From: Candidatus Limnocylindrales bacterium
GTDB lineage: Bacteria; Chloroflexota; Limnocylindria; Limnocylindrales; CSP1-4
Assembly (NCBI GenBank): GCA_036508755.1
Contig: DATCGV010000087.1
Coordinates: 1,677-65,676 of the forward strand
Length of the DNA stretch: 64,000 nucleotides
Direction: 5' to 3'
In this document: positions 25,458-56,901 of the stretch, piece after piece
Position numbering within the stretch: the stretch's first letter is position 1
Layout of the letters: each line of letters opens with the position of its first letter
The notes under the pieces: generated by a model
What the model was told of the DNA's origin: nothing
The model's input: only the letters and a program-made list of their open reading frames with translations
Database searches by the model: none
Translations under genes and position numbers: made by a program

Positions 25458-25830
25458 GGGGATGAGTGGTTTCGACAGGGCCGGATCCCCGGAGAACGCG
25501 AGCCGAGGTTGCCATCAGGCCTCGTTAATCAGGTGGCAAAACGAAGTAACTGGCAACCGCCAGCCTGCTCTCGCCCTCGCCGCTTAAGGCGGTAAGGTGA
25601 GCGTCGAAGCAGCCCCATCCCCGCGGGTTGTGGAAGCGTCATTCAGCGGGGATGCGCTATCGACCAGGTCACGTAGCCGGTAGCAAAGCCCGCAAGGGAA
25701 CGTGGATGGATCGATCAGTACGCTGTCGATGGCGGACCGGTAGATTGACGATAAATCATCGAACACGCTCGTAGCTGGTCTCCGGCTGATGGTTCTGGAC
25801 GAGGAGTTCGACTCTCCTCCATCTCCACCA
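25458..25830 (+). ncRNA. ssrA: tmRNA (SsrA), 373 nt including the encoded CCA
   Basis: The 5' GGGGAUGAGUGGUUUCGACAGGG pairs with the 3' ...CAUCUCCACCA, including the G3:U wobble. T-arm GAGGAGUUCGACUCUCCUC. Tag ORF GGC AAC CGC CAG CCT GCT CTC GCC CTC GCC GCT TAA (25552-25587) = GNRQPALALAA. Confidence 0.93.
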
Positions 25831-42142: not shown

Positions 42143-43614
42143 CAGCCCAGTGTGACTCCCCAGTAGACGCCCCACGCATTTATGAGCACCGACAGCGCGA
42201 CCAGGCCGACGGTCAGCTTGCGCACCCCGAGCCACGCGATGGCGAGAGTCACGAGAACGAGCGCGAAGGGCGCAAAGTCGTTGCTGAAGCGATAGCCGAA
42301 CTGAACCCAGCCCTGGCTGAAGTGCATCAAGTTGACGAAGGCCACGGCGACTACGGCCAGCGCCGAGCCAAGGACGATGCCGCGCCGCCAGTAGCGGATG
42401 ACGAGTGGCACCGCGAGCAGATAGGCCGGGCTGGTCAGGAGGACGCTCATGCCGATCTGGTCTGGTTTGATCGCGGCGCAGGACAGGATGGAGGCCAGGT
42501 TGCAGTCGGCCGGGATCGATGGCGGCCAGGCGAGCATGATCAGCGCGTTGAGCGGTACGTGGCCGATGTCCTCGATGCCCAGGCTGCGGTTGATCTCGAA
42601 GCCGGGCGGCATATACCCGACGAACTCGGTCTGGTAGAGGTAGTCGTAGGCCGGATTGAACAGATGACCGCTCGACAGCTGGTTGTAGATGAGCAGGAGC
42701 GCGACTGGGATGAGCGCGCCGAGCGCAGCCGAGGCGCCGCGCCGCCAGACGGACCCGCCCGCGCCCACGAACAGGAAGAACGGCGCGGCGAAGATCACGG
42801 TCAGTCGGGCCATCGCCGCGACGCCGAACACGAACCCCGCGGCAAACTGGATGGGCTCGAAATGGGGGCGCACGCGGCGGTACCAGCCAAGGAACAAGCT
42901 GTTCTCGGCGAACGTGGCTGCGACCTCGTTCGCCGGGCGCTGGCCGCCCATGGGTCGGAGGGCGCGCAACGCGGCCAGCGCCTGTTCGCGGCGCTCACCG
43001 TCGAGCGCGAGGGTGATACCCAGGACGGTGAACGTGATCGCCACGACATGGGCCAGGAACCACGTCGACGAGAGCATCGCCGCATACCAGTGAACCGTGC
43101 CGAAGGCGAAGAAGACGGTGGCCAGTACGGCCACTGCGCGACGCTCGGTCAGGCGTGTAGTCATGCGCCAGACGAAGCCGACGTTGATCGCGCCGAGCGC
43201 CACGCCGACCAACTGGGCGTTGGTGGCCAGGCCGAAGACAGCCACGAACGGCATGAGCACGACGGCCGGCAGTGGCGGGAACGGCAGCAGCGCGTAGCTC
43301 GGGCCCGAGGGCGGGCCCGGCAGCGGCATGACGTCCTGGAAGTAGCTGTTGACGAACGGCCCATCGGTGACCGGATAGGCGATCGCGAAGCGGCCGTGCA
43401 GGAACGCGTCGGCCTGCCAGACGAAGTGGTTGTACAGGCCGTTGCGCGATTGGTCGGAGAAGTAATAGACGGCCAGCGCGAGGACGACGAAGAGCAGCCC
43501 GATGAGCGCCGGGTCGACACGCTCGAGCGCCAACTCGAAGCGCTCGCCGATCGTTGGCCGGGTCGTCGCCGGCGGCCGGGGCCGATCGAATGTCGTTGCT
43601 ATACTGCGCTGCAC
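42139..43614 (-). CDS. GT-C fold membrane glycosyltransferase (ArnT/PMT_2- or GT87/DUF2029-like; subfamily unresolved)
   Basis: 491-aa polytopic membrane ORF with an acidic/aromatic first loop (NHFVWQADAFLHGRFAIAYP...SYALLPFPPLP). First gene of the three-gene minus-strand unit. Confidence 0.6.
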   Translation of the reverse strand: MQRSIATTFDRPRPPATTRPTIGERFELALERVDPALIGLLFVVLALAVYYFSDQSRNGLYNHFVWQADAFLHGRFAIAYPVTDGPFVNSYFQDVMPLPGPPSGPSYALLPFPPLPAVVLMPFVAVFGLATNAQLVGVALGAINVGFVWRMTTRLTERRAVAVLATVFFAFGTVHWYAAMLSSTWFLAHVVAITFTVLGITLALDGERREQALAALRALRPMGGQRPANEVAATFAENSLFLGWYRRVRPHFEPIQFAAGFVFGVAAMARLTVIFAAPFFLFVGAGGSVWRRGASAALGALIPVALLLIYNQLSSGHLFNPAYDYLYQTEFVGYMPPGFEINRSLGIEDIGHVPLNALIMLAWPPSIPADCNLASILSCAAIKPDQIGMSVLLTSPAYLLAVPLVIRYWRRGIVLGSALAVVAVAFVNLMHFSQGWVQFGYRFSNDFAPFALVLVTLAIAWLGVRKLTVGLVALSVLINAWGVYWGVTLGW

Positions 43615-43643
43615 CTCGTCACCCTCTGGAGGTTGGGTCGGTT

Positions 43644-46600
43644 GTGACAGCGCCCCGCCCGGATGGGGCCGACCGGATCTCCGGAGTCTCGCAGAGTCCG
43701 CGTGGTGCGGGTGCGGCCGTCTCCGGCATTGCGATCCTGCTCCTCGTCGGTCTTCTCCTTCGACTCGTACTCGCGTACGTCCTGCTGCCCGGCTCCGGTT
43801 TTGCTTCGGACATCGGCACTTTCACCGCCTGGGCTTCCCAGCTGGGCCAGAGTGGACCAGGCGATTTCTATGCCACGGCGGGATTTGCAGACTATCCGCC
43901 CGGCTACCTGTATGTCCTGTGGTTGCTCGGCGGGCTGGGCCACATTCTGGCGCCCCTGGCAGGCGGCGATGCCGGCTCGGTGATCGCAGCGCTGATCAAG
44001 ATCCCGCCCATCCTGTGCGACGTTGCCATCGGCTACGTCCTGTACCGGATCGTCAAGTCCTGGCGCGGCGAGCATCCCGACGCGCAGCGCCTGGCGCTGA
44101 TCGCCGCCGCGATCTACCTGTTCAACCCGGTCACCTGGTACGACTCGGCGATCTGGGGCCAGACCGACTCGGTCGGCACGCTGGTCACCCTGCTCGCTGT
44201 CCTCGCCCTTATCCGCGGCAACTCCGAGGGTGCCTCGGTGCTCGCCGTGCTCGCCGTGCTGGTCAAGCCGCAGTTCGGGGTCGTCGCGCTGCCCGTCGTC
44301 GGTATCGTGCTCCTGCGCCGTCACCTCTTCGCGCCGGAGACCATTCCGCACAACCCGGTCCTCCTCCCTGCTCGTCTGCGCGGCTGGTTCGAAGAGGAGG
44401 GCGGCTTCTGGCGGCTTGTCTCGTCGGCCGTCGCGGCGCTGCTCGTGCTCGTCGTGCTTCTCGTCCCGTTCTCGCTCGACATACCGGGCTTCGTGCAGCT
44501 CATCGTCAAGACCGCCGGCGGATACCAGTACCTGTCGGTCAATGCCTACAACCCGTGGGCGCTGATCGGCGCGGGGGGGCAGGCGCCGCTCGCCTTTGGT
44601 GGCGGCTGGTCGCCCGACACCGTGCCGCTCATCGGTCCGTTGCCCGGCGTGTTGATCGGTGGCCTACTCCTCGTCGCCGGCTTTGGCCTGGGCGCGCTGC
44701 GCCTGGCGTGGCGCGACGACAGGCGCAGCATCATCGTCGTCACGCTCCTCCTCGCGCTGGGCTTCTTCATCCTGCCCACGCGCGTCCACGAGCGTTACAT
44801 GTTCCCGATCTTCGCCTTGCTGCCGATCCTCGCGGTCGTCGACCGGCGCTGGCTGGCGGCGACGATCGTCCTCTCGATCGGCGCGTTCATCAACATGCAC
44901 GGCATCCTGACCACGCCGCTGTACGCGACACCGAACGTCGCCAACCTGCCCTTGGGCGAGCTGTTCCGCGACCCGATCGGCATCCTGACCAGCATCGTCC
45001 TGAACGTGGCCGGCTTCGTGTTCGTCGCCTGGATGCTCCTGCCCAGTGCGGCGAGCGAGCCGGACTCGTACGACGAGCCGGCGCCGGCCGAGGAGGCCGG
45101 GCTTGGGCCGGACGAGGAATACGGCACCGAGGGCTACGTCGGGCCGCCCACAGCGCCCTGGTACGCGCCCCTGGCCGCTCTCGTGCCGCGCTACTCGATC
45201 CGCCGCGACCGAAGCGCCGAGCTGGTCAATGAGCTGGGCGGGACGCTCGGCAGGCGCGATGCCGTGCTCTTCGTGGTCATCTTCTTCGCTGCGCTGCTGT
45301 TGCGCACCTACAACCTCCAGCAGCCCTTCGACATGCACTTCGACGAGGTCTACCACGCGCGGACGGCGATGGAGTTCCTCCAGGACTGGCGCTACGGCAT
45401 ACCCCACTCGATCTACGAGTTCACCCACCCGCATATCGCCAAGTACGGCATGGCGATCGGCATCGAGCTGCTCGGCGACGACAAGGTCATCTCGACCGCG
45501 GATCTTGGTGCGGCCGTCGATTCAGCGGTCATCGAACAACGCTGGGCGCCGACAGATGCGCCCGACGAACACCTCGGCGACCGGCTGTACATCGCCACGG
45601 GCAGCGACGTCAACGCGTACGACCTCGAGGGCGCCGGTCCCAGGTTGGTAGCGACGATCCCGGGCGACTACGTTGCCGTTACGGTCGATGAGGACTCCCA
45701 CATCCTGTACATGGCCTCGGCCGATGGCACGGTCAGCCAGCTGCCCACCTCGGGCCTCGATGCATTGCGCCAGACAGGCTCGACGGACACGTCGGGCGAC
45801 CTGAGCGCGGCGCCGTTCGGCGCGCTGACCGGGCTCAATGGCAGCCTCGAGCGGCTCCAGGTCATCGGCGGCAACCTTGTCGGGCTGTCGAGCGGCGGCA
45901 CGTTGGTCAGCGTCGACCCTAGTACCGGTGCCGAGACAGGGCGAACGCAGATCACGGGCGTCGCCGACTACACCAGCGCACCGGCCAACTCGGAGGTCAT
46001 GGTTGATCCAAGCCAGGTCACCGACCGAGCCGGCGAGGCCCAGAAGCTGGCCGACCTGCTGCACGACGACCAGACGCGCATCGAAGGTGTCATTGCCGCG
46101 GCCAAGGGCCCGGTGCCTATCGCGGGCTACATCGGCGACAAGAAGGGCGACGTCCAGAACGCAATCGACGGCGGCGACCTGACCGGCGTGAGCATGACCG
46201 ACGGCACCGCGGTTGCCGTCGCGACGCCGAGTGGCGTGACCCTGCTCGATTCGACGACGCTTTCGACGCTCAGGCAGGTCGACATATCGATCCCCGCCAC
46301 TGGACTGGCGTTTGCCGCACGCGGCCCGGACGTCCCGACGCTGTACGTCGCGACCGGTCGTACCTTGACCACGATCCGGCTGGCGACCGACTCAGCCGTG
46401 GGGGTGAGCCTCACGCTGCCCATGCCCAACGTCGTCACGAAGGTCTACTGGGACGAGGCGACGACCAACGTCCACGCTCTGGGTACGACACAGGACGGCA
46501 GCTCGCCGACGGTTTATGTCATCGAGCCGCGCGGCAACTCCGTGTTCGCCGATGCGCCACTGCCGTTCCAGCCACAGGTCGCGCTCATGGACGCCAACCA

Positions 46601-48815
46601 GCTGTATCCCTCCGAGGACCGCAACGACCTCCTGGCGCTCAGTCCGAGCGGCCAGCTGGCGACGATAGACACGGGCAACAACCAGTTCGCCTACCGCTTC
46701 CCGGGAGTGCTGCTCGGGGCGTTGACCGCCGCGCTCATCTTCCTGCTCGCGCGCTTCCTGTTCCGGCGCCGGACGGTCGCGGTCATCGTCGCGATCCTCG
46801 TCCTGGCCGACGGCATGTTCTTCGCCAACTCGCGCATCGCGATGAACGACACGTATGTGACGTTCTTCATCGTCGCCGCGCTTACCGTCTTCGTGCCACT
46901 GTGGATTGGCCGCTGGCGCGGCCGCTGGGTTACTGCGGGCGGCCTGCTCACCGTCGGCATCCTGCTCGGCCTCGCCCTGGCTTCCAAGTGGGTCGGCGCT
47001 TACGCAATGGGCGCAGTGGGCCTGCTCATCCTGCTCCGCTCGTCCCTCGGGCGCTGGGTCGCCCTGGCGGCGATGATCCTGTTGACCGGTTTGCTCGGGT
47101 ATCTCGCCATCACGCCGAATCCGACGGTCGCCAACCCGCAGATCAACTACGTCTTCTTGGGCATCATGGTCGTGCTGACCGTGCTGCTCGCGATCGGCAT
47201 GACGATCCGTCGCGTGCGCACGTCGCGCGACGAGTTCCGCTTCGCGGTCGGCTTTCCGCTGCTGCTCGGCGTACTCGGCGTGCTCTACGGCCTGTTCCGC
47301 ATCATCACCGGCCCGCCGCCCGCGGCGGGCGCTCTTCTGCCGCCCGTGCGCGTGCTGGAGCTCGGCATTGCCGGCGTCATCGTCGGGCTCGCGGTCCTGG
47401 GCGTGGGCTGGTACCGCGGCCGGCGCGGCCACGGCCCGTTGGCTAGCGCCGCGACCGTCGATCCGACGGCAGACCCAGGCTCGCCGCCGCCTGACCGTGG
47501 CTGGCTGAGGCCGGGCTCGGGCCTGCTCGGCCTTCCTTGGCTGCTGGCCCTGCTCGCGATCACGGTCGTGCCGCTCGTCGTCTATGTCATCAGCTACATC
47601 CCGTGGATCAACCTGGGCAACCAGTGGTTCACGGGCTACCCGGCGGGCCACACCGGGCAGACGTTCCTGGACCTCCAGGTGTCGATGTACGACTACCACA
47701 ACTACCTGCGCGCAACGCACCCGGCGTCTTCGCCGTGGTGGGCCTGGCCGCTCGACCTGAAGCCGGTCTGGTTCCAGCAGGAGGACTACGCCGGCGGCAC
47801 GACGTCGGTCATCTACGACACGGGCAACATCGTCATCTTCTGGCTGTCGATTCCGGCCGTCGCCTGGGCGTGCTGGCAGGCGTGGAAGCGCCGCAGCCTG
47901 GCACTCACGTTCATCGCCATCACGATCTTCGCAATGTGGCTGCCGTGGGCGCGCATCGACCGCGCGACGTTCCAGTACCACGTCTTCACGATCCTGCCGT
48001 TCTCCTTCATGGCCCTCGCGTACATGCTCGGCGAGCTGTGGCACGGCCCCTCACCACGGACATGGGCGCTAGCCAAGGCATCGGCCGCTCTGGCGATCAT
48101 CGGGGCACCCTTGTTATGGCTCTTCCGGCTGCCCCTGTGCGGCCTGGCCAACACCCAACAGGTCAACAAGGGCACCGAAGTGTGTGGCAGCCTGTCGCGT
48201 GACTTCCAGCTGACGAGCTTCCAGCTGATCGGCATCGTGCTCGTCCTCGGCGCGCTGATCGCAGCTGGCGTCATCGCCTACAGGGGCCTGCGCAACAGCT
48301 CGACGATCAACGGTGGCATGAGACCGTTGCTCCTGCCAATCTCGTTCTCGGTCGCCCTGTTCGGCGCGGTGATCGTCATCGTCGGTGCCGGACTGCCCGG
48401 CGATTCGGTTTTCCATGCGTCGGTGACGGCCGAGATGCCGGCTTTCATCGCCCTGCTCCTGCTGTGCGTGCCGGCCTACTTCGTGCTCCAGGGCAGGGAC
48501 CCCAAACGCTACGTCGTCGGCGTCCTGGTCGCGGCAGTGGTCTGGTTCGTCGCCTTCTACCCGAACTTCGCCGCGCTACCGGTGCCCACGCCGCTGTCGC
48601 AGGTCCATCTCGGCCTGCTGCCCACCTGGAACTGGGGCTTCCAGTTCGGGGTCAACCTCGACGAGCCCAATCGGAATCCGCTCGATTTCACATCGATCAG
48701 CCTGCTCGTGATAGCCACGACCGCCCTGTGTATCGCGGCGATGTACGCCGTCCGTAACTGGAACAGCGCCAGGTCGGACCCCGCCGAGGTCAGCCCTCCG
48801 CCCGAACCGAGCTGA
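43644..48815 (+). CDS. Giant (~1720 aa) polytopic protein: N-terminal ALG6/ALG8- or DUF2029-like GT-C module fused to a PMT (GT39)-like GT-C module that carries a ~400-aa soluble insert
   Basis: Module 1 has SDIGTFTAWASQL...FADYPPGYLYVLW and ...TRVHERYMFP. Module 2 has ...MHFDEVYHARTAMEF...YEFTHPHIAKYGMAIG (DE and HPP-x-x-K-like PMT loop 1). The insert spans about 45480-46680. A GTG at 43644 preceded by GGAGG is preferred over the ATG at 43554, which would overlap the divergent gene. Confidence 0.75.
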   Translation: MTAPRPDGADRISGVSQSPRGAGAAVSGIAILLLVGLLLRLVLAYVLLPGSGFASDIGTFTAWASQLGQSGPGDFYATAGFADYPPGYLYVLWLLGGLGHILAPLAGGDAGSVIAALIKIPPILCDVAIGYVLYRIVKSWRGEHPDAQRLALIAAAIYLFNPVTWYDSAIWGQTDSVGTLVTLLAVLALIRGNSEGASVLAVLAVLVKPQFGVVALPVVGIVLLRRHLFAPETIPHNPVLLPARLRGWFEEEGGFWRLVSSAVAALLVLVVLLVPFSLDIPGFVQLIVKTAGGYQYLSVNAYNPWALIGAGGQAPLAFGGGWSPDTVPLIGPLPGVLIGGLLLVAGFGLGALRLAWRDDRRSIIVVTLLLALGFFILPTRVHERYMFPIFALLPILAVVDRRWLAATIVLSIGAFINMHGILTTPLYATPNVANLPLGELFRDPIGILTSIVLNVAGFVFVAWMLLPSAASEPDSYDEPAPAEEAGLGPDEEYGTEGYVGPPTAPWYAPLAALVPRYSIRRDRSAELVNELGGTLGRRDAVLFVVIFFAALLLRTYNLQQPFDMHFDEVYHARTAMEFLQDWRYGIPHSIYEFTHPHIAKYGMAIGIELLGDDKVISTADLGAAVDSAVIEQRWAPTDAPDEHLGDRLYIATGSDVNAYDLEGAGPRLVATIPGDYVAVTVDEDSHILYMASADGTVSQLPTSGLDALRQTGSTDTSGDLSAAPFGALTGLNGSLERLQVIGGNLVGLSSGGTLVSVDPSTGAETGRTQITGVADYTSAPANSEVMVDPSQVTDRAGEAQKLADLLHDDQTRIEGVIAAAKGPVPIAGYIGDKKGDVQNAIDGGDLTGVSMTDGTAVAVATPSGVTLLDSTTLSTLRQVDISIPATGLAFAARGPDVPTLYVATGRTLTTIRLATDSAVGVSLTLPMPNVVTKVYWDEATTNVHALGTTQDGSSPTVYVIEPRGNSVFADAPLPFQPQVALMDANQLYPSEDRNDLLALSPSGQLATIDTGNNQFAYRFPGVLLGALTAALIFLLARFLFRRRTVAVIVAILVLADGMFFANSRIAMNDTYVTFFIVAALTVFVPLWIGRWRGRWVTAGGLLTVGILLGLALASKWVGAYAMGAVGLLILLRSSLGRWVALAAMILLTGLLGYLAITPNPTVANPQINYVFLGIMVVLTVLLAIGMTIRRVRTSRDEFRFAVGFPLLLGVLGVLYGLFRIITGPPPAAGALLPPVRVLELGIAGVIVGLAVLGVGWYRGRRGHGPLASAATVDPTADPGSPPPDRGWLRPGSGLLGLPWLLALLAITVVPLVVYVISYIPWINLGNQWFTGYPAGHTGQTFLDLQVSMYDYHNYLRATHPASSPWWAWPLDLKPVWFQQEDYAGGTTSVIYDTGNIVIFWLSIPAVAWACWQAWKRRSLALTFIAITIFAMWLPWARIDRATFQYHVFTILPFSFMALAYMLGELWHGPSPRTWALAKASAALAIIGAPLLWLFRLPLCGLANTQQVNKGTEVCGSLSRDFQLTSFQLIGIVLVLGALIAAGVIAYRGLRNSSTINGGMRPLLLPISFSVALFGAVIVIVGAGLPGDSVFHASVTAEMPAFIALLLLCVPAYFVLQGRDPKRYVVGVLVAAVVWFVAFYPNFAALPVPTPLSQVHLGLLPTWNWGFQFGVNLDEPNRNPLDFTSISLLVIATTALCIAAMYAVRNWNSARSDPAEVSPPPEPS

Positions 48816-49992
48816 TCGGCTGCGGGTCGCGCGTCCCGAATACGAGCGCCGGGTCCGTGTGCTCGGGCAGGATGCCCTGCGCAGCAGCGCGCCGCGCGAC
48901 GAAGAGGTAGTACTCCTCGACCTTGGCGGCGATGTTGTCCCAGCCGAACTGGACGGCGCGCTGCCGCGCCGAAGCGCTCATCCGAGCGCTCATCTCCGGG
49001 TTGGACAGCAGCTGGCCGATCGCGTCGGCCAGAGCCGTGACGTTGCGCGGTGGGACCAGCAACCCCTGCTCGCCGCGCCGGACCACGCTCCGGTAGCCGT
49101 GAATGTCGCTGCACACGATGGGCGTCCCCGACGCTAGCGCCTCGAGCAGCACGACGCCCATCGATTCCTGGCCCGTCGCGGGTGAGACGTAGACGTCGGC
49201 GGTCGCGAAGTAGCGGATCTTGTCCTCGTCGCTGATGCGGCCCAGGAGCTCGACGCCGCCAAGGCGCCGGGTCGCGATGTAGCGCCTGATCTCGCGTTCC
49301 TGTGGCCCGGCGCCCGCGAGCAACAAGCGGCAATCGTAGCCGCGCTGACGCAGCTGGCGGTACGCCTTGAGCGCGTACATCACGCCTTTGCGCGGCTCGA
49401 AGCGGCCCAGGAAGAAGATGTTGGCCGTGCCGTCCTTGTAGCGCGTGATCGCCCGGGCGTTCTTGAAGCGATCGAGATCGACGCCGTTGGGGATGACCTT
49501 GTAGTCGCCCGGGAAATAGCGGTCGGCGAAGTGGCGCGCCGCCGCGCTGACGGCTATCCGGCCGTGAAGGCGGCGCGCGAATCGGCCCAGCATGCGCTTG
49601 CCGAACTCAGCCGCCGGGCTCCAGCCGGCATAGGCGTGGAACGTGGCGATGTTGATGCTCTTCGACTCGCGCAGGAGCACGAGCGACAGGAAGGGCACGA
49701 ACGGCTCGTGGAAGTGCAGGATGTCGAAGCGTTCCTCGTCGAGCATTTTGGCGACGATGCTCGTGTAGCGCGGCGAGAAGGTAAGCGTGCCGACGGATCC
49801 GTTGGCCGGCACGGAGAAGCCATAGCCCAAGCGGATGATGTCGCCCTCGCTCTGGCGCTGCGGGCCATGGACGCTGCTGATGATGCGGACGTCATGACCG
49901 CGCGTGACGAGGTGCTCGTACAGGTCGTGGACGTGTGCGTTGACGCCACCGGGCAGGGGATAGATGTACGGCGTCACGAGGCCGATCTTCAT
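48790..49992 (-). CDS. pimA: GT4 glycosyltransferase, PimA-like phosphatidylinositol alpha-mannosyltransferase
   Basis: MKIGLVTPYIYPLPGGVNAHVHDLYEHL... and ...ESMGVVLLEALASGTPIV... closely parallel mycobacterial PimA. ATGA overlap with the PHP gene. Confidence 0.8.
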   Translation of the reverse strand: MKIGLVTPYIYPLPGGVNAHVHDLYEHLVTRGHDVRIISSVHGPQRQSEGDIIRLGYGFSVPANGSVGTLTFSPRYTSIVAKMLDEERFDILHFHEPFVPFLSLVLLRESKSINIATFHAYAGWSPAAEFGKRMLGRFARRLHGRIAVSAAARHFADRYFPGDYKVIPNGVDLDRFKNARAITRYKDGTANIFFLGRFEPRKGVMYALKAYRQLRQRGYDCRLLLAGAGPQEREIRRYIATRRLGGVELLGRISDEDKIRYFATADVYVSPATGQESMGVVLLEALASGTPIVCSDIHGYRSVVRRGEQGLLVPPRNVTALADAIGQLLSNPEMSARMSASARQRAVQFGWDNIAAKVEEYYLFVARRAAAQGILPEHTDPALVFGTRDPQPISSVRAEG

Positions 49993-50798
49993 TCGCCCCT
50001 CCGCCGCGCGCCCAGGCCAGATTCATCGAGCCGTGCCGGCCGCAACCTGCCGCCCGGATAGCCCAAATCCCGACCTGTTCCGTCGCGCAGCAGCTTGCCG
50101 CGCACTTCGTCACGGACGGCGAGCGCGTTCTTGCCCATCTGGCGCCGAAACGTGGATACCTGCGTCTTCCATTCGTGTGTCGATCCTTCCCAGCCGGTGG
50201 TCCGCTCCACAATCGCGCGTCTGACGTCCTCGGCCGAGCTGCCCGGGAAGGTCGTCAGCGCGTGACCGACGTGCTCCGCACGATGGGCGTCGCTCGCGCC
50301 AAGCGCCGCGACGCCCATCTCAGCGATGAACTCGGGCGCCCGTCTGGACCAGCGCATGCTGGCCGTGGTCGGGTTGAACGCTTCGATCCCGTCCGGGTGG
50401 AAGATCGGGTCGGGATCCGCCATCAGCTTGCGTATCGACCCGGCGCTCGCGCACAGCGGATATGGCACGAGCGGATGGGCGATGATCGCGAGGCCGCCTT
50501 GCTCGTGGATCTGCCTGACCGTCGAGCGGAGCGATCCCCACGGCCGAATGCGCTCGTTGATGTACAGCGCCACGACGTGGCCGCCGCGCGTGGTGACCTC
50601 TTCACCGACGACGACCTGGACATGCAGGCCGCGCGCCTCGGCCATCGCCTTGGCGGCGTGCGCCGCGTCCACACGCTCGTGGTCGGCAATCGCGATGACG
50701 TCGAGGTGGGCGCGGTTCTCGGCGTGGTCGAGGATCTCAGCCACGCTCGACACGCCGTCAGAGGCCAGGCTGTGGATGTGCAGATCGGCGCGGCCCAT
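49989..50798 (-). CDS. PHP-domain metal-dependent phosphoesterase (TrpH/YciV-like)
   Basis: ATG at 50798. N-terminal motif ADLHIHSLASDGVSS, then IAIADHE and IAHP. Overlaps the upstream stop by 1 nt and the downstream pimA start by 4 nt. Confidence 0.8.
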   Translation of the reverse strand: MGRADLHIHSLASDGVSSVAEILDHAENRAHLDVIAIADHERVDAAHAAKAMAEARGLHVQVVVGEEVTTRGGHVVALYINERIRPWGSLRSTVRQIHEQGGLAIIAHPLVPYPLCASAGSIRKLMADPDPIFHPDGIEAFNPTTASMRWSRRAPEFIAEMGVAALGASDAHRAEHVGHALTTFPGSSAEDVRRAIVERTTGWEGSTHEWKTQVSTFRRQMGKNALAVRDEVRGKLLRDGTGRDLGYPGGRLRPARLDESGLGARRRGE

Positions 50799-51844
50799 CA
50801 GTGGCTCGCTCCGCGGGCATCTGCCGCCAGGTCGTCCCAGATCGGAAAGAACATCGTCCACCACTGTTCAGGCGCGTCGGCGATGGCGCGCTCGAACGCT
50901 CGCGCCTGCGCGTCCATGAAGCCGGCCAGGCGCTCGCGGGTCGTCCCCGTCGCCGGCATCTCCAGGCGTTCGAGGCGCGTCGGGTAGCGGGCGCCGGCGC
51001 GCCGCGTGGCGACGAGCCATGTCGGCGCGCCCGTCTCGAGGGCGAGGACTGCCGGCCCCGCCGGCAGGCGCGCCGGCGCGCCAAAGAGATCGACACGAAC
51101 GCCTTTGCCGCCGATCTGTCGGTCAGCGACGAGGGCGACGGTCTCGCCCCGGTCGAGCGTGTCGCGCACGACGGTCGCGGCACCGGCGAGCGGGATGACG
51201 CGCAGTCCGGTCTGGCCGCGCGAGCGCTCGAAATAGGCCTGCAGGTCCGGATCAGCGATCGTCTCCATGGGTGCGGTGATGGGCACTCCCCGTGCGGTGG
51301 CCCACAGAGCGGGGATCTCGACCGCGCCGAAATGCAGACCGACGACGATCGTCGGGCCGCGCCGGCCGGCAGGAAACGCCTCGTCGGCCAGCGCAGGCAC
51401 GTCGGGCTGGACGCGCGCGAGCTCAGCCGGCAGCGCGAAGCGGCGCACGGTTGCGTTCTCGAGGTAGCTGCGCACCCAGTGTCCGAACGCATCACGCACG
51501 AGCCGGTCGAGCTCGCGGGCATCGCGCGCGGCGGCAGCTGTCCGTGGCCCGCCCATGTCGTGAGCGGCGAGATAGGTGCAGACGCGTTCGAGGTTGGCGC
51601 GCACCAGCCGCCGCCGCGCCGGCCGGGTTCGGTACAGCACGCCGCCCCACGCCCACGCGAGGCCCACGAGAGGGCGCTCGGGAAGCCGCGTCAGGAGACC
51701 GGAAAGCACGGACAGGCCGCGCACGACGAGCCTGCCGCGTAGCGACTGGCGACGCTTGGGTGCCGGCGGCCGGGTGGCGCGCGCCCCTGCGTCGTGTGAT
51801 TCGACGCCGGGTGACTGTGGCTTGGCCGCCACGACCGTCGTCAT
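50798..51844 (-). CDS. HtrB/LpxL-family lipid acyltransferase (PatA-like PIM acyltransferase candidate)
   Basis: ATG at 51844 (ATGA overlap). Motif VGLHFGAVE (HxxxxE) and C-terminal ...PEQWWTMFFPIW, typical of the Lip_A_acyltrans family. Confidence 0.75.
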   Translation of the reverse strand: MTTVVAAKPQSPGVESHDAGARATRPPAPKRRQSLRGRLVVRGLSVLSGLLTRLPERPLVGLAWAWGGVLYRTRPARRRLVRANLERVCTYLAAHDMGGPRTAAAARDARELDRLVRDAFGHWVRSYLENATVRRFALPAELARVQPDVPALADEAFPAGRRGPTIVVGLHFGAVEIPALWATARGVPITAPMETIADPDLQAYFERSRGQTGLRVIPLAGAATVVRDTLDRGETVALVADRQIGGKGVRVDLFGAPARLPAGPAVLALETGAPTWLVATRRAGARYPTRLERLEMPATGTTRERLAGFMDAQARAFERAIADAPEQWWTMFFPIWDDLAADARGASH

Positions 51845-52989
51845 GCGCCGGCCCCAGAGATGCTCAGCGCCCGCTCGGCGAGCGCCTGCTTCTCCTGCGC
51901 GGTCTGGGGCCAGATGGGCTTGAACGAGTACCACTGCTCTGGCGCGGTCGAGATCATGTCCTCGAGCGCGACCGCGATGAGTTGAGTTGCGCGTTGCATC
52001 TCAGCGTCGCTCGTATCGGCGACGTCGATCGGGTCGTAATGGCGGGCGAGGTACGTGCCGTCGTCGAGGCGGCGACAGACGACCGGCACGATCGCCGCCT
52101 TGGTCTTGGCCGCGAGCATCGCCGGCCCAGCCGGCAGCGTGGTCCACTCGCCGAAGAGTCGAACGGGAATGCCGTCGGGTCGGTAGCCCCAGTCAACGAC
52201 GAGGCCCAGGATGGCCGGTTCACGCAGTGCGCTGAAGACGCGGCGCAGGTTGCGCCAGGGAATGATCTCGATCTTCCAGCGTCGGCGCTGGGCGTTCATC
52301 TCCTCCAACAGCTCGGGGTACGCGGAATCATCGGCCAGCCCGTAGGTCGGCAGCCCGCGCAGCGCAAAAGCACCAGCCAGCAGGTCGATCGACCCGACGT
52401 GGCCCGAGACTGCGATCAGGCCGCGCTTCTGGGCGCGTAGTCGCTCGAACAGATCGATGAACGACTGCCCGCCGTGATCGCCGTCGAGTTGGGCGAGGAG
52501 CCGCGTTGGTTCATCGGCGGGCAGGTATGGCAGGCGCATCAGCTCGATCACGAACTGGGCATAGGTGGCGTAGATGCGCTGAGCCAGGCTGCGCACGCGC
52601 CGGTCGGCCGGCGGCAGGCCGAGCACGTGCGACGCGTTCGAGAGGATGATCCGGCGCTTGACCGGCCACGCGAAGTAGCTGCCGACGAACAGCGCCCGAC
52701 CGACGGGCAGACTGACCCGCGTCGGGACATGCGCGATCGCGGCCGAGGCAGCACGGTAGCCACGTACGGCGGAGCGCTCGCGCGCCCGCCGTACGGCTCT
52801 GCCGACCCGACTGCCGGCCTGTTCTCTACGGTGCGGCGCGTAGTTGATGCCGCTGTCTGTCTCGCTCAGCTGGTTGGGACCTCGCTTCAGAGGTGTAACG
52901 CTAGGCGACGGTTGCCTTGGCCGCCTGTGCGGCCTTTTTGCTCGCTGATGGCGAAGCGTGGCTGCCGAGTCGTCGTCGCTTGAGAGCAA
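51841..52989 (-). CDS. HtrB/LpxL-family lipid acyltransferase, second paralogue (start uncertain)
   Basis: Motif VSGHVGSID and C-terminal ...[11 protein letters not shown]. The only in-frame ATG/GTG/TTG start is at 52989, which overlaps the ino1 3' end by 89 nt. Confidence 0.7.
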
Positions 52990-54175
52990 GCGCCTTCTCG
53001 GTGCCGACGAGTGTCTCGTTGTCCTCGCCGCGGATGAACGCCTCGACGCGGTTGAACGCGATGTCGTCGTGGATCTGGATCGGCGGGCTCTTCATGAAGT
53101 AGCTCGAAGGAGCGACGAGTGTGCCCTTGAGGCCGCGATCGAGACCGAGCTTCAGGCAGCGCACGGAATCAGTGATCACGCCGGCGCTGTTGGGCGAGTC
53201 CCAGACCTCGAGCTTGAGCTCGGCGTTGAGTGGCACGTCGCCGTAGGTCGTGCCCTCCATCCGGATGTAGCACCACTTGCGGTCGAGCAGCCACGGCACG
53301 TGGTCGCTTGGGCCGACGTGGATGTTGTCCGGGTCGATCTCGTAGTCGAGCATGCTCGTGACGGCATTGGTCTTGCTGATCTTCTTCGACTCCAGGCGTT
53401 CGCGCTCGAGCATATTCAGGAAGTCGGTATTGCCACCGAAGTTGAGCTGGTAGGTGCGATCGAGACGGACGCCGCGGTCCATGAACAGGCGCGTCAGCAC
53501 GCGGTGCGTGATCGTCGCGCCGACCTGGCTCTTGATGTCATCGCCGATGATCGGCAGGCCTTCCTCGGCGAAGCGGCGCTGCCAGTAGGGCTCACGACCG
53601 ATGAACACCGGGATGGCGTTGACGAAGCCGACGCCGGCCTTGAGCGCCTGCTCGACGTACCACTTGGTCGCCTCTTCCGAGCCGACGGGCAGGTACGAGA
53701 CCATCACGTCGACCTGGCGCTCCTTGAGGATGCCGACGACGTCGACCGTGGGACCGGGCGCCTTCTCGATGATCTGGGAGAGGTACTTGCCCAGGCCGTC
53801 GTGGGTCATGCCGCGCTGCACTTCCACGCCCAGGTGCGGTACCTGCTGGAACACGTACGTGTTGTTCGGCTTGGTGTAGATCGCCTCGGACAGGTCCTTG
53901 CCGACCTTGTTCTTGTCGATGTCAAAGGCAGCCACGAAGTGGATATCGCGGATGTGGTAGCCGCCCAGGTTGACATGCATCAGACCCGGCACGAACTCGT
54001 CGTCGGCCGCATTCTCGTAGTAGTAGCGGCCCTGGACGAGGCTGCTGGCGCAGTTGCCGACGCCCACGATCGCGACGCGGATCTTGCCGTCGTTGCGCTT
54101 CGGGCCGCGCCCGTTGCCGTTCCCGTGGACCTTTGCGTCCGCGTGAGCCTTGCCGTTGCCACTGCCCTTGGCCAT
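52901..54175 (-). CDS. ino1: myo-Inositol-1-phosphate synthase
   Basis: ATG at 54175. [22 protein letters not shown]..., essentially the bacterial MIPS signature, with Lys/Gly-rich N- and Lys/Ala-rich C-terminal tails. The listed 602-aa ORF is an out-of-frame extension over pgsA. Confidence 0.9.
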
Positions 54176-54177
54176 GG

Positions 54178-54861
54178 TTACTTGTGAGCCTCCTGCCTTG
54201 TTGACTGTGACTGGCGATAGACGAAATAGATGCGTTGGATGGTCGTGATGGTTGCGAGGAGCACGATCAGGCCGAGGCTGCCGAACATGGCGATGTCTCC
54301 GGCTGTATTCGGCCAAAACATCTCGCCTGGGCCTCCGGCCAGCCCGGTAAGCACAAGTCCGACCACGAGGATGCCGAGTCGAACCTCGCGCGGCGCCAGC
54401 CCTACGTTCGCCATACCCGTTCCGGAGCTGAAGCCGAGGCTTTCTGACTTGGCGCGCGTGTAGCTGACCATGAACGATGCGGCGAGGGCTGCGATCGGAA
54501 ACATCTCGTGAAAGCCGATCGGGCCGCCTTCGACCGTCCAGCCGAGACCCCACGCGATCCCGATGTAGACGATCCCCTCGCCGGCGCGGTCCATCGTGCT
54601 GTCGAGGAAGGCGCCGAACTTGCTGGTCTTGCCCGTCGCCCTGGCCAGCGCCCCGTCGAAGAGATCGAAGACTGCCCCGAACGCGACAAGTAACCCGGCA
54701 ACGAGCCACGCGTGCTGGGCTGCTGCCACCGCGGCAACCACGGCGATGGCGAAGCCGATGAGCGTCAGCGCGTTGGGCGACAGGCCGGTGCGCACGAACA
54801 CGCGTGCCACGGGTGCCTCGATGGTTGCCCGGAAGCGCTGGCGGAACGACGCCGAGATCAC
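54178..54861 (-). CDS. pgsA: CDP-alcohol phosphatidyltransferase, PgsA1-like phosphatidylinositol-phosphate synthase
   Basis: Signature [30 protein letters not shown] (DG-x2-AR-x8-G-x3-D-x3-D). GTG at 54861, 6 nt after the ArsR stop. Adjacent to ino1. Confidence 0.78.
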
Positions 54862-54866
54862 GGCCG

Positions 54867-55199
54867 TCAGCTCGCGAGGCCGAGCATCTCGCGCTCGCGG
54901 GCGCGGAAATGGGTCAGGACATCCCTGCTCAGCGTGCAGATCACCTCGCGGCCGGCGCGGCGCGTCTCTACTACTCCGGCCGCCTTGAGCCGGTGCAGGT
55001 GCCACGAGACGAGTGGCTGGGACAGGTCGACGTGCGCGGTCAGCTCAGTGACCGTCGCCGGACTTTCTGCCAGGCGCTGCATCAGGCGCAGGCGGGTCGG
55101 GTCGGAAAGTGCCTTGTGATATGCCGCGACCAAGCGCAGCTCCTCGGGCGGAGCGGTCAGCGCGGCGAGAGTTGATCGAATGTGGGCGGGAGAGGGCAA
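54867..55199 (-). CDS. ArsR/SmtB-family transcriptional regulator
   Basis: wHTH region ...[51 protein letters not shown].... A TTG at 55199 preceded by AAGGA gives 110 aa. The longer ORF to 55280 would cover the operator-like palindrome. Confidence 0.8.
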
Positions 55200-55237
55200 G
55201 TGCGTCCTTCTGGGCTGCGTCGGGCTGGGACGACGAC

Positions 55238-55269
55238 GCCTAATACATAAAGCAGTGTTGATATTAGGC
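55238..55269. promoter_or_regulatory. AT-rich inverted repeat (GCCTAATA-N16-TATTAGGC), candidate operator in the ArsR / MFS divergent promoter region
   Basis: Perfect 8-bp arms in the only AT-rich stretch between the divergent ArsR operon and the MFS gene. Confidence 0.4.
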
Positions 55270-55314
55270 ACGGCCGTCACGACATGTCAACAGGCCGCGT
55301 TCCATACTCGGCGG

Positions 55315-56901
55315 ATGTCGCGCAGCGCCAGGCTCGTCGTCCTTGCTTCGCTGGGCCTGGGCGTATTCCTCGTTGGCGTCGAGCTCATGGTCACGGCCGT
55401 GGCACTGCCGCAGATCCTGAACAGCCTGACCGACTGGACCCAGCTCCGCCACGCGGCGTGGATCGTCAACGGCTACCTCGTCGCGTACGTGGCGGTCATG
55501 CCGCTCGCCGGCCGTGCCGCGGACAGGTTCAGCCTTGCCACGCTGTACGGCATCAGTCTCGCGACCTTTGCCGTTGGCTCGTTTGCCGCGGGCACGGCGC
55601 CGAGTCTCGACTGGCTGATCGCGGCGCGGGTCGTGCAGGGCGCGGGCGCGGGCGCTGTCTTTCCGCTCGCCACGGCCGCTGCGGGGCATCTCTTCGAAGG
55701 CCCGGCCCGCGCCCGCGCCATCGGAGTCGTGGGTGCGCTGTCCTTTCTGGGCATGGCGTGCGGGCCGTTCGTCGGTGCCACCATCCTGCAGACCTTTCAG
55801 CTCGCGGGAGGTGCGCTGGTCACGCCCAGCTGGCGCTGGGTGTTCTATCTCGGTGCCCCGTTCGCCCTCCTCGCCGGCGTCTACACCTGGGCGACCGCGC
55901 GCAACTGGCCCCGTCCGACCGGTGGCGGCTCGCTCGACATCGTCGGCGCCACGCTGTTCACAAGCGGCGTGTCTCTGGGCCTGATCGCGATTAGCACGGT
56001 CGGCGGCGACGATCAGACACTGCCGCTGGTGCTGGGCGCTGTCGGGCTCGGCGCCTTGATCGCGGCCTTGGCCTGGTTCCGACGCCGGCCCGATCCGTTC
56101 TTCGACCTCAACCACTTCCGCGATCGGACGTTCTCCGGGGCGGTGCTCATGAGCCTGCTGACCGGTTACGCGTTCGCGACCGCAATCATCGGCGCGGCCG
56201 TGTTCGTCGATCGCGTGCGCTATGCCGGACCCTCCGAGCAGCAGCTCGCGCTGGGCGCGCTGGCCGCGGCAACGGCCCTGGGTGCGCTGGCCTCGGGCTA
56301 CATCGTGCGGCCGATGGGAGTGATGCTGCCCAGCGTGTGTGGCCTAGTGGCCCAGGTTGCCGGCCTGCTCGTCGTGGCCACGGCCCGGCCCGAGACTGAC
56401 CTGGCCGTGCTGTGCGCCGGCCTCGCGCTGATCGGCGCCGGTTTCGGGGTGACCGTGACCGCGCGCACGTCGGGTGCCCTTGAGACGCTCGGCCGGCGCG
56501 CATTCGGCGTCGCCAGCGCGACCCTGACCGTCGGCCGCATGCTCGGCATGGCCATCGGCGTGAGCGCCCTGACCGTCCTGGGCTCCAACCGGATCGAGTC
56601 ACTTTCCGTGGTCCTGACCGACCAGGCGGCGCGCGACGCGGTCCTGCCGCCGGCACTCCAGGGCCGGCCACTGCAGGATTACCTGGTCGTCGACGCGCTC
56701 GAGCGCTGGGCCGCCGGCCAGGCCGCCGACATCCTGGGCACGGTATTCGTTGTCGCCGCGATCGTGACGGCTATCGCCATTCTGCCTACGCTGGCAATGC
56801 GCAACCGGCCGGGTGCGCGAGTCCGGCAGGAAGCAAAGCAGAGGTTCCAGGACGACCCAGATGGCACAGCGGACCAGCAGACGTCGGCGCTCGGCTTCTA
56901 G
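55315..56901 (+). CDS. MFS transporter, DHA2 (14-TMS EmrB/QacA-like) family
   Basis: ATG at 55315. MSRSARLVVLASLGLGVFLVGVELMVTAVALPQIL..., multiple TM segments, motif ...PLAGRAADRF.... Confidence 0.85.
   Translation: MSRSARLVVLASLGLGVFLVGVELMVTAVALPQILNSLTDWTQLRHAAWIVNGYLVAYVAVMPLAGRAADRFSLATLYGISLATFAVGSFAAGTAPSLDWLIAARVVQGAGAGAVFPLATAAAGHLFEGPARARAIGVVGALSFLGMACGPFVGATILQTFQLAGGALVTPSWRWVFYLGAPFALLAGVYTWATARNWPRPTGGGSLDIVGATLFTSGVSLGLIAISTVGGDDQTLPLVLGAVGLGALIAALAWFRRRPDPFFDLNHFRDRTFSGAVLMSLLTGYAFATAIIGAAVFVDRVRYAGPSEQQLALGALAAATALGALASGYIVRPMGVMLPSVCGLVAQVAGLLVVATARPETDLAVLCAGLALIGAGFGVTVTARTSGALETLGRRAFGVASATLTVGRMLGMAIGVSALTVLGSNRIESLSVVLTDQAARDAVLPPALQGRPLQDYLVVDALERWAAGQAADILGTVFVVAAIVTAIAILPTLAMRNRPGARVRQEAKQRFQDDPDGTADQQTSALGF

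What the first reader, a model, noticed from the sequence alone, without database searches (positions are those of the whole stretch)
49989..50798. PHP-domain phosphoesterase embedded in the PI/PIM operon: candidate for the PIP phosphatase step
In the bacterial and archaeal route, Ino1 makes inositol-1-phosphate and the PgsA1-type enzyme condenses it with CDP-DAG to phosphatidylinositol phosphate. That product must then be dephosphorylated to PI before PimA can act. To my knowledge the phosphatase for this step is not firmly assigned in actinobacteria-type systems. Here a 269-aa PHP-family metal-dependent phosphoesterase (ADLHIHSLASDG…, TrpH/YciV-like) is wedged between the acyltransferases and pimA, with overlapping stop and start codons on both sides. 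That placement strongly implies co-expression and a role in the same pathway. The PtpB-like pair at 16976-18536 are alternative candidates.
Basis: inference. Interest (0 to 1): 0.65.

Follow-up and report, generated by a model that had tools for sequence, protein, structure and literature searches.

The report
Candidate PIP phosphatase in Chloroflexota operon
A small metal-dependent phosphatase gene sits inside the inositol-lipid operon of a Chloroflexota bacterium and stays beside the PIP synthase gene through many gene-order changes, which makes it the best candidate for the phosphatase that turns phosphatidylinositol phosphate into phosphatidylinositol, a step still unassigned in most bacteria.

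Summary
Window 49989-50798 (-) encodes a 269-aa PHP-superfamily phosphoesterase. All nine residues that I align, from memory, to the tri-metal-site ligands of Cv1693 are conserved. Its start and stop codons overlap a PatA-like acyltransferase upstream and a clear PimA orthologue downstream. The operon reads ArsR, PIP synthase, Ino1, acyltransferase, acyltransferase, PHP, PimA. The organism is a Chloroflexota bacterium (Candidatus Limnocylindria), not an actinobacterium.

All 53 related genomes with enough flanking DNA keep the PHP gene in this operon. Homologues at 36-44% identity, some named Dormibacteraeota, keep it through several different gene orders. Six metagenome loci carry only ArsR-PHP-PIP synthase, with no PimA, acyltransferase or Ino1 detected nearby.

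The protein lacks the roughly 80-residue insertion domain of TrpH/RNase AM. It scores far below the cut-offs of every named PHP subfamily.

The pathway has exactly one unassigned step, a phosphomonoester hydrolysis, and PHP is the only hydrolase in the operon. Papers from 2019 to 2026 still call this phosphatase unidentified outside Bacteroides, where it is an unrelated PgpA-type enzyme.

It still rests on comparative genomics; no biochemistry exists.

The parts
49989..50798 (-). PHP-superfamily metal-dependent phosphoesterase, 269 aa; the candidate PIP 3-phosphatase. PHP barrel at residues 1-205, basic helix at 210-233, conserved disordered tail at 238-254.
48790..49992 (-). PimA orthologue (GT4, GDP-mannose:PI alpha-mannosyltransferase), 400 aa. 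Its start overlaps the PHP stop (ATGA).
   Evidence: M. smegmatis PimA (2gej/4n9w) 1e-60 over the full length, against PimB' 5e-19 and MshA 1.6e-17. Also.
50798..51844 (-). PatA-like acyltransferase 2. Probable start is the ATG at 51844 (348 aa); the longest ORF reaches 51934. Its stop overlaps the PHP start by 1 nt.
51841..52989 (-). PatA-like acyltransferase 1. The coordinates give the longest ORF; the true start is uncertain. Its stop overlaps the probable AT2 start (ATGA).
52901..54175 (-). myo-Inositol-1-phosphate synthase (Ino1), 424 aa from the ATG at 54175, with GGAGG upstream.
   Evidence: (TIGR03450, 534 bits)
54178..54861 (-). PIP synthase (PgsA1-type CDP-alcohol phosphatidyltransferase), about 227 aa from the GTG at 54861.
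   Evidence: Best PDB match is Mtb PgsA1 (6e-21). R94 and Y133 are conserved and R137 is K.
54867..55280 (-). ArsR/SmtB-family regulator at the head of the operon (longest ORF given). It is found upstream of the cluster in most gene orders seen, including the minimal module.
43554..48815 (+). Neighbour, not part of the operon: a 1753-aa GT-C fusion (Alg6/Alg8-like domain plus PMT domains). It is convergent with pimA and overlaps the pimA 3' end.

Best explanation
The gene encodes a soluble or peripheral PHP-fold phosphomonoesterase with a three-metal active site. It most likely removes the 3-phosphate from phosphatidylinositol 3-phosphate (PIP).

Proposed pathway: Ino1 makes inositol phosphate. 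The PgsA1-type synthase joins it to CDP-diacylglycerol to give PIP. PHP hydrolyses PIP to phosphatidylinositol. PimA then mannosylates PI, and the two PatA-like enzymes acylate the product.

What is shown:
- the gene, its fold and the conserved residues at the expected metal-ligand positions;
- the identities of its neighbours;
- the conserved linkage to the PIP synthase gene.

What is inferred:
- the substrate;
- membrane or partner association through the basic C-terminal extension.
For: 1. One gap in the pathway. The operon encodes PIP synthase, Ino1, two PatA-like acyltransferases and PimA. The synthase keeps the Ino-P phosphate-binding R94, keeps Y133, and has K at position 137. R137K behaves like wild type in Mtb PgsA1 (PMC6506517). 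PIP is therefore the expected product and a phosphatase is required. PHP is the only hydrolase in the operon.

2. Conserved linkage.
- 53 of 53 Limnocylindria-type genomes with long flanks keep AT-PHP-PimA together with the PIP synthase. PHP identity falls to 53% across them.
- Homologues at 36-44% identity keep PHP in rearranged clusters. Examples are (ArsR-)MIPS-AT-AT-PHP-PimA-PIPS (ArsR present in some loci), MIPS-AT-PHP-PimA-PIPS, and PIPS-MIPS-AT-PimA-AT-PHP.
- In a sample of 80 distant metagenome loci, 51 have an acyltransferase or PimA adjacent to PHP.

3. Minimal module. Six loci are ArsR-PHP-PIP synthase(-NYN), with no Ino1, acyltransferase or PimA match found in the sequence available (up to 8 kb per side; 1.6-8 kb in practice). 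Two of their synthases were scanned and score as PIP/AIP synthases. This links PHP to the synthase step rather than to mannosylation or acylation.

4. Catalytic competence. H7, H9, D14, H40, E67, H74, H108, D170 and H172 are invariant in the close clade. They are 86-100% conserved across operon-linked homologues. From memory, this pattern matches the tri-metal ligand pattern of Cv1693. The AF2 core has pLDDT above 90.

5. Not a known PHP enzyme.
- The ~80-residue TrpH/RNase AM insertion is absent.
- NCBIfam scores are 51 against 375 for RNase RNM and 48 against 400 for pAp phosphatase.

6. No PgpA homologue appears in the window or in 2.1 Mb of related loci.

7. The C-terminal extension carries net charge +7, against -7 for the core. 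This would suit binding to an anionic membrane surface.
Against: - No biochemical data exist for any member of this clade.
- Every PHP enzyme I know of that has a characterised substrate acts on soluble substrates: nucleotides, histidinol phosphate, or protein phosphotyrosine (my own knowledge). A lipid head-group substrate would be new for the fold.
- The nearest characterised relatives by sequence are nucleotide-directed.
- The protein has no membrane segment, and the amphipathicity of the C-terminal helix is weak.
- All linkage evidence comes from one phylum in the broad sense (Chloroflexota, including Dormibacteraeota), so part of the synteny may be inherited rather than selected.
- A few members within the operon-linked part of the family tree lie outside inositol contexts (L083, L131).
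- Whole genomes were not searched for other phosphatases. Two PtpB-like PF13350 phosphatases lie 32 kb away.
Confidence: 0.6

Rival explanations
1. PHP is an inositol-phosphate head-group phosphatase acting on a different substrate or at a different step. Candidates are soluble inositol-1-phosphate (an IMPase-like role), mannosylated or acylated PIP after PimA or PatA has acted, or a GlcNAc-inositol-phosphate type intermediate.
For: - PHP always lies next to the acyltransferases and PimA in the large operons.
- One homologue (L131) lies next to a PIG-L family deacetylase. That family acts on GlcNAc-inositol compounds.
- The order of dephosphorylation and mannosylation has not been tested in these organisms.
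Against: - The minimal ArsR-PHP-PIP synthase loci have no detectable PimA or acyltransferase nearby. A post-mannosylation substrate cannot be the general one.
- An Ins-1-P phosphatase co-expressed with a synthase that consumes Ins-P (R94 conserved) would destroy that synthase's own substrate.
Confidence: 0.15
2. PHP is a nucleotide-directed phosphoesterase (pAp phosphatase, nanoRNase, or CMP/GDP nucleotidase). On this view it is carried in the operon as a helper that removes nucleotide by-products. This would parallel the Nudix and HIT genes of the mycobacterial pgsA1-pimA operon (that parallel is from my own knowledge).
For: - The closest characterised relatives by sequence are RNase AM (2e-16) and the Cv1693 pAp phosphatase.
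- A paralogous clade of the same family sits beside SurE and PhoU genes, which is a nucleotide and phosphate context.
- PIP synthase releases CMP and PimA releases GDP.
Against: - The insertion domain present in TrpH/RNase AM/Cv1693 is missing.
- Scores are 7-8 times below the family cut-offs.
- The SurE-linked proteins form separate clades. They are less conserved at H74, H98, D136 and R193.
- Housekeeping nucleotidases are not expected to track one lipid synthase gene through six gene orders.
Confidence: 0.12
3. PHP is another lipid or regulatory phosphatase. It could be a general PGP or polyprenyl-phosphate phosphatase, or a CpsB-like protein phosphatase that regulates the pathway. On this view PIP is dephosphorylated by an enzyme encoded elsewhere, for example the PF13350 PtpB-like pair, a PgpB/PAP2 enzyme, or an EphE-like hydrolase.
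For: - Two PtpB-family phosphatases are in the window. From my own knowledge, M. tuberculosis PtpB hydrolyses phosphoinositides.
- EphE was proposed for mycobacteria in 2026.
- From my own knowledge, CpsB shows that the PHP fold can act on proteins.
- Whole genomes were not searched.
Against: - No kinase partner is present in the operon.
- The PtpB-like genes are 32 kb away and are not among the genes called in the flanks of the related loci whose gene tables I read.
- The linkage is specific to the PIP synthase, which a general lipid phosphatase role would not explain.
Confidence: 0.08

Closest known systems
BT_1525, the PgpA-family PIP phosphatase of Bacteroides thetaiotaomicron (Heaver et al. 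2022, PMC9246714)
   Same: The proposed reaction is the same: PIP to PI, directly after a PIP synthase. It is also encoded in the same cluster as Ino1 and the PIP synthase.
   Different: The fold and family are unrelated (PgpA against the PHP barrel with three metals). No PgpA homologue occurs in these operons. The downstream products also differ: sphingolipids in Bacteroides, PimA/PatA glycolipids here.
TrpH/YciV = RNase AM, and the Cv1693 3',5'-nucleotide bisphosphate phosphatase (PHP family, COG0613; PDB 9etk, 7ug9, 2yb1)
   Same: They share the PHP barrel, and the nine residues I align to the metal ligands follow the same pattern. They are the best sequence matches among solved structures (2e-16).
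   Different: The ~80-residue insertion domain is absent here. NCBIfam scores are 51 and 48 bits against cut-offs of 375 and 400. Identity is 25% or less. The genomic context is entirely different.
TM0559 (2anu) and BVU_3505 (3e38), 'minimal' PHP proteins of unknown function; NCBIfam CehA/McbA metallohydrolase domain
   Same: They are the best structural matches, compact PHP domains without the TrpH insertion. The best NCBIfam domain hit is 65.7 bits.
   Different: TM-scores are only about 0.6 with about 20% identity. The NCBIfam score is below the cut-off of 80. Those proteins have no assigned function or inositol context, and they lack the basic C-terminal extension.
Mycobacterial pgsA1-patA-pimA operon (Rv2612c-Rv2610c), whose PIP phosphatase is still missing; EphE was proposed in 2026
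   Same: PIP synthase, PatA and PimA are homologous and clustered. The same missing step is under discussion.
   Different: From my own knowledge, the mycobacterial operon has no PHP gene and carries HIT and Nudix genes instead. Here Ino1, a second acyltransferase and an ArsR regulator are also in the operon.

Membership tests
PHP superfamily (Pfam PF02811/PF13263; tri-metal phosphoesterases) | Significant match to the PHP/PHP_C profiles, and the PHP barrel fold | tested here: met
   PHP_C scores 42.9 bits against a cut-off of 21.3. PF02811 is precomputed on most homologues. Foldseek gives probability 1.0 to 3e38, 7ug9, 2anu and 2yb1.
PHP superfamily (Pfam PF02811/PF13263; tri-metal phosphoesterases) | A complete set of metal ligands (HxH, D, H, E, H, H, DxH) | tested here: met
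   H7, H9, D14, H40, E67, H74, H108, D170 and H172 are invariant in the close clade. They are 86-100% conserved in 72 operon-linked sequences. The assignment of these residues to individual metals follows the Cv1693 pattern recalled from memory.
TrpH/YciV RNase AM and 3',5'-nucleoside bisphosphate phosphatase (NF047791, NF041577) | Score above the curated equivalog cut-off | tested here: not met
   51.2 bits against 375, and 47.8 bits against 400.
TrpH/YciV RNase AM and 3',5'-nucleoside bisphosphate phosphatase (NF047791, NF041577) | An insertion domain of about 80 residues between the two halves of the barrel | tested here: not met
   Query positions 7-90 align to chain residues 3-90. Query positions 89-129 align to chain residues 170-207 of 9etk.
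Histidinol-phosphate phosphatase HisJ/HisK (TIGR01856) | Match to the HisJ family profile | tested here: not met
   No TIGR01856 hit at E<=0.01. The only related hit is PRK06361 at 16 bits against 117. The Foldseek match to 2yxo is weak (E 1e-3).
PgpA-type PIP/PGP phosphatase (BT_1525, PF04608) | Homology to PgpA | tested here: not met
   No Pfam PgpA hit on the PHP protein. E. coli PgpA tblastn finds nothing better than E 0.12 in the window plus 2.1 Mb of related loci.
Functional class 'PIP phosphatase' | Hydrolysis of the PIP 3-phosphate to give PI, shown in vitro or in vivo | not testable with these tools
   This needs an enzyme assay or lipidomics of a reconstituted pathway.
Functional class 'PIP phosphatase' | Conserved genomic coupling with a PIP synthase that uses Ino-P | tested here: met
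   53 of 53 genomes and 12 of 15 long-flank distant loci have the PIP synthase within 9 kb. Six loci have only ArsR-PHP-PIPS.

The most novel reading that the evidence does not exclude
This PHP clade is the genuine PIP 3-phosphatase of Chloroflexota. It would be a further, unrelated enzyme family for this step, alongside the Bacteroides PgpA type and whatever actinobacteria use, and the first PHP-fold enzyme I know of that acts on a membrane-lipid head group. In Limnocylindria, its invariant but disordered C-terminal tail (RDGTGRDLGYPGG) would dock it onto PIP synthase, PimA or PatA. The result would be a membrane-bound assembly line that passes PIP to PI to acylated PIM without releasing intermediates. 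PHP would also free inositol O-3 for the second PatA-like acyltransferase.
Probability: 0.2. Interest if true: 0.75.

Novelty: new variant of a known kind. Interest (0 to 1): 0.62.

Why it matters
The PIP-to-PI step is a recognised gap in bacterial and archaeal inositol-lipid synthesis. Papers describe the enzyme as 'yet-unidentified' in 2019, as not yet identified in 2022, and as 'long-sought' in mycobacteria in 2026. Only Bacteroides has an assigned enzyme, of the PgpA type.

A PHP-type PIP phosphatase would give a concrete candidate that can be cloned and tested with standard assays. It would be an example of non-orthologous gene displacement at this step. It would extend the substrate range of the PHP fold to a lipid head group.

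The finding also indicates that PIM-like glycolipid synthesis (PimA plus PatA-like enzymes) is widespread in soil and freshwater Chloroflexota. From my own knowledge, that trait is usually associated with Actinobacteria.

It does not identify the mycobacterial enzyme. As far as I recall, that operon has no PHP gene.

Tried and rejected
A closer alignment (A4) worked, but the 80 loci returned were all Limnocylindria-type.

- Many 50%-cluster representatives (P0143, P0145, P0150, P0164, P0170, P0238, P0267) proved to be frameshifted gene calls and were useless for alignment. P0150 is a frameshift fusion of PHP with PimA, which incidentally shows adjacency.

- I considered that the GT4 might be MshA, which would make PHP the missing MshA2 phosphatase of mycothiol synthesis. 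I rejected this: PimA matches at 1e-60 over the full length, against 1.6e-17 for MshA.

- I considered the CDP-inositol (Kennedy-type) route described for B. vulgatus. I rejected it because no nucleotidyltransferase is in the operon and the synthase is of the PgsA1 type.

- I looked for an amphipathic membrane helix in the C-terminal extension. It shows only weak amphipathicity (maximum hydrophobic moment 0.46), so membrane binding is not shown.

- Literature searches linking the PHP domain to phosphatidylinositol found nothing relevant.

Full report
**1. The observation**

The minus strand of the window carries a run of tightly packed genes:
- an ArsR-family regulator (54867-55280);
- a CDP-alcohol phosphatidyltransferase (54178 to about 54861);
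- myo-inositol-1-phosphate synthase (52901-54175);
- two lipid-A-type acyltransferases (51841-52989 and 50798 to about 51844);
- the PHP protein (49989-50798);
- a GT4 glycosyltransferase (48790-49992).

The PHP ATG shares one base with the upstream TGA (TGATG). The PHP TGA overlaps the downstream ATG (ATGA). If AT2 starts at the in-frame ATG at 51844, the two acyltransferases are joined by another ATGA. Four genes would then be coupled by overlapping stop and start codons.

Homologues start at or just before the MGRADLH position, so the 269-aa reading is the right one. The ORF is clearly a real gene: 3481 homologues at E<=1e-5 in one search and 5014 cluster representatives at E<=1e-3 in another.

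**2. The organism**

Named homologues and the 80 best genome loci are Chloroflexota, mostly Candidatus Limnocylindria/Limnocylindrales metagenome-assembled genomes. The pathway is of the actinobacterial type, but the host is not an actinobacterium.

**3. What the neighbours are**

- The GT4 matches M. smegmatis PimA at 1e-60 over its whole length. PimB' scores 5e-19 and MshA 1.6e-17.
- Among solved structures, both acyltransferases match only PatA, the PIM acyltransferase. Their best NCBIfam model is 'phosphatidylinositol mannoside acyltransferase', although below its cut-off.
- The phosphatidyltransferase is closest to M. tuberculosis PgsA1 (6e-21) and to the PIP and archaetidylinositol-phosphate synthase models.
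- In the alignment to PgsA1, R94 is conserved. The Mtb structural paper found R94 critical for binding the phosphate of inositol phosphate. Y133 is also conserved. R137 is K, and R137K was wild-type-like in that study.

The synthase is therefore expected to use inositol phosphate and make PIP. PIP must lose its 3-phosphate before or around the PimA step. PHP is the only hydrolase in the operon.

**4. What the PHP protein is**

- Profile matches: Pfam matches PHP_C above threshold.
- Known subfamilies: NCBIfam gives only sub-threshold similarity. CehA/McbA scores 65.7 against 80, RNase RNM 51 against 375, and pAp phosphatase 48 against 400.
- Structure: the AlphaFold2 model is confident for residues 1-205 (most blocks above 90). 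It predicts a helix at 210-233 and a disordered tail.
- Fold matches: Foldseek finds PHP structures only. These are BVU_3505, RNase AM, TM0559, PsfC and Cv1693, with TM-scores of about 0.55-0.6 and identity of 25% or less.
- Missing domain: a profile search of PDB sequences aligns residues 7-90 to RNase AM 3-90 and residues 89-129 to RNase AM 170-207. The roughly 80-residue insertion of the TrpH/RNase AM group is therefore absent.
- Active site: H7, H9, D14, H40, E67, H74, H108, D170 and H172 are invariant in the close clade. They are 86-100% conserved across 72 operon-linked sequences. From memory, the pattern corresponds to the three-metal site of Cv1693.

The protein looks like an active metal-dependent phosphoesterase of a subfamily with no assigned function.

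**5. Linkage to the pathway**

*Limnocylindria-type genomes.* Among the 80 genome loci, all 53 with enough flanking sequence carry PHP between an acyltransferase and PimA, with the PIP synthase upstream. In four of these, Ino1 has left the cluster while the rest stays. PHP identity falls to 53% and the neighbouring PMT protein to about 38%.

*Distant homologues.* These matter more. At 36-44% identity, some in a cluster named Dormibacteraeota, PHP is found in several gene orders with different flanking genes:
- ArsR-MIPS-AT-AT-PHP-PimA-PIPS;
- MIPS-AT-PHP-PimA-PIPS;
- ArsR-PIPS-x-MIPS-AT-AT-PHP-DUF2238-PimA;
- PIPS-MIPS-AT-PimA-AT-PHP.

*Metagenome sample.* In 80 loci fetched with a profile of the distant clade:
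- 51 have an acyltransferase and/or PimA adjacent to PHP;
- 6 have only the PIP synthase adjacent;
- 3 have none of these despite at least 3 kb on both sides;
- 20 are too short to judge.

**6. The minimal module**

L141, L142, L146, L148, L152 and L157 read ArsR-PHP-PIP synthase, followed by an NYN-domain protein in the two loci annotated (L142, L148). No Ino1, acyltransferase or PimA match was found in the flanking sequence available, which is up to 8 kb per side and 1.6-8 kb in practice. The synthases of the two loci I scanned score as PIP/AIP synthases.

In a quick neighbour-joining tree, this group is sister to full-operon loci that also end in PIPS-NYN. It therefore looks like a reduced form that kept exactly the two genes needed to make PI from inositol phosphate.

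This is the strongest single argument that PHP belongs to the synthase step, not to mannosylation or acylation. It also argues against an inositol-monophosphatase role. Such an enzyme would consume the substrate of the synthase it is co-expressed with.

**7. Exceptions and paralogues**

- A separate set of clades lacks any inositol context. In L173 and L174 the PHP gene is followed by SurE, and in L174 also by PhoU. These proteins are less conserved at H74, H98, D136 and R193. They probably have another function, perhaps related to nucleotides.
- Within the operon-linked part of the tree there are isolated exceptions. L083 has no lipid genes adjacent. L131 lies next to a PIG-L deacetylase.

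**8. Other candidates for the step**

- A tblastn search with E. coli PgpA found nothing better than E 0.12 in the window plus 2.1 Mb of related loci. The Bacteroides solution is therefore not present in these operons.
They are 32 kb away and are not among the genes called in the flanks of the related loci whose gene tables I read.
- Whole genomes could not be searched, so an unlinked phosphatase cannot be excluded.

**9. Literature**

- The Mtb PgsA1 structure paper calls the phosphatase 'yet-unidentified' (PMC6506517).
- Heaver et al. 2022 assigned the PgpA-family BT_1525 in Bacteroides and noted that the bacterial phosphatase had not previously been identified (PMC9246714).
- A July 2026 preprint still calls the mycobacterial enzyme 'long-sought'. 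It offers EphE only as a candidate without biochemical evidence.
- Searches that combined the PHP domain with phosphatidylinositol, or Chloroflexi with PimA, returned nothing relevant.

**10. Verdict**

I estimate about 0.6 probability that this is the PIP phosphatase of these bacteria.

The main rivals are:
- a related head-group substrate or a different step in the pathway (0.15);
- a nucleotide-directed helper enzyme (0.12);
- another lipid or regulatory phosphatase role (0.08).

The protein is a member of the PHP superfamily but of none of its characterised subfamilies. The predicted function would be a new substrate class for the fold and a non-homologous replacement for the Bacteroides enzyme. 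The evidence is comparative only and comes from one phylum. A straightforward reconstitution experiment would settle it.

Noticed in passing
window 50037-50087 (-), PHP residues 238-254: The C-terminal tail motif RDGTGRDLGYPGG(R)RRP is invariant across Limnocylindria-type homologues, yet AF2 predicts it to be disordered. It is missing from the shorter distant homologues. Its presence tracks adjacency of the giant PMT gene (65 loci with both, 86 with neither). It may be a docking peptide, but this is unexplained.
   Followed up: partly
window 43554-48815 (+): A 1753-aa membrane protein fuses an Alg6/Alg8-like GT-C domain with PMT and PMT_4TMC domains. It is convergent with pimA, and the two ORFs overlap by 26 nt. 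It is conserved next to the operon in 50 of 53 related genomes. It may be a polyprenyl-phosphate-sugar-dependent glycosyltransferase that extends the PIM-like lipid or glycosylates proteins.
   Followed up: partly
window 50798-52989 (-): There are two tandem PatA-like acyltransferases instead of the single patA of mycobacteria. Some lineages (L094, L133) have only one. The second might perform the inositol O-3 acylation, whose enzyme is, as far as I know, unknown in mycobacteria. PHP would expose that same hydroxyl.
   Followed up: no
window 54867-55280 (-); also L141, L142, L146, L148, L152, L157: An ArsR/SmtB-type regulator heads the inositol-lipid cluster in most gene orders seen, including the minimal ArsR-PHP-PIPS module. 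This suggests a dedicated, conserved regulator whose signal is unknown.
   Followed up: partly
window 16421-18536 (+): Two tandem PF13350 (PtpB-like) phosphatases lie directly after SecA (13956-16979). The Pfam E-values are 1e-52 and 1e-55. The domain of the first starts near 16994, consistent with a start around 16976.
   Followed up: partly
L131 6403-8184: A PHP homologue from the operon-linked part of the tree lies next to a PIG-L family deacetylase (GlcNAc-PI/MshB-like) instead of the PIM genes. This hints at another inositol-glycoside pathway that needs a phosphatase.
   Followed up: no
L173 8022-9569; L174 8001-10548: A paralogous PHP clade is followed by SurE (5'/3'-nucleotidase), and in L174 also by PhoU. 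It probably has a different function, related to nucleotides or phosphate.
   Followed up: partly
L088 11390-13366; L148 9842-12004; L142 10040-12460: A large protein of 650-800 aa with a C-terminal NYN (RNase-like) domain follows the PIP synthase gene in several lineages. Its role is unknown.
   Followed up: no
L093 4033-4797 (-): A second PHP-domain gene sits divergently upstream of Ino1 in this locus, in addition to the PHP gene inside the operon.
   Followed up: no
window 25458-25830 (+): A full-length tmRNA gene (Rfam RF00023, 134 bits).
   Followed up: no
window 55180-56901 (+): An MFS transporter is divergently transcribed from the ArsR regulator. The same arrangement is seen in L001 and L002.
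   Followed up: no
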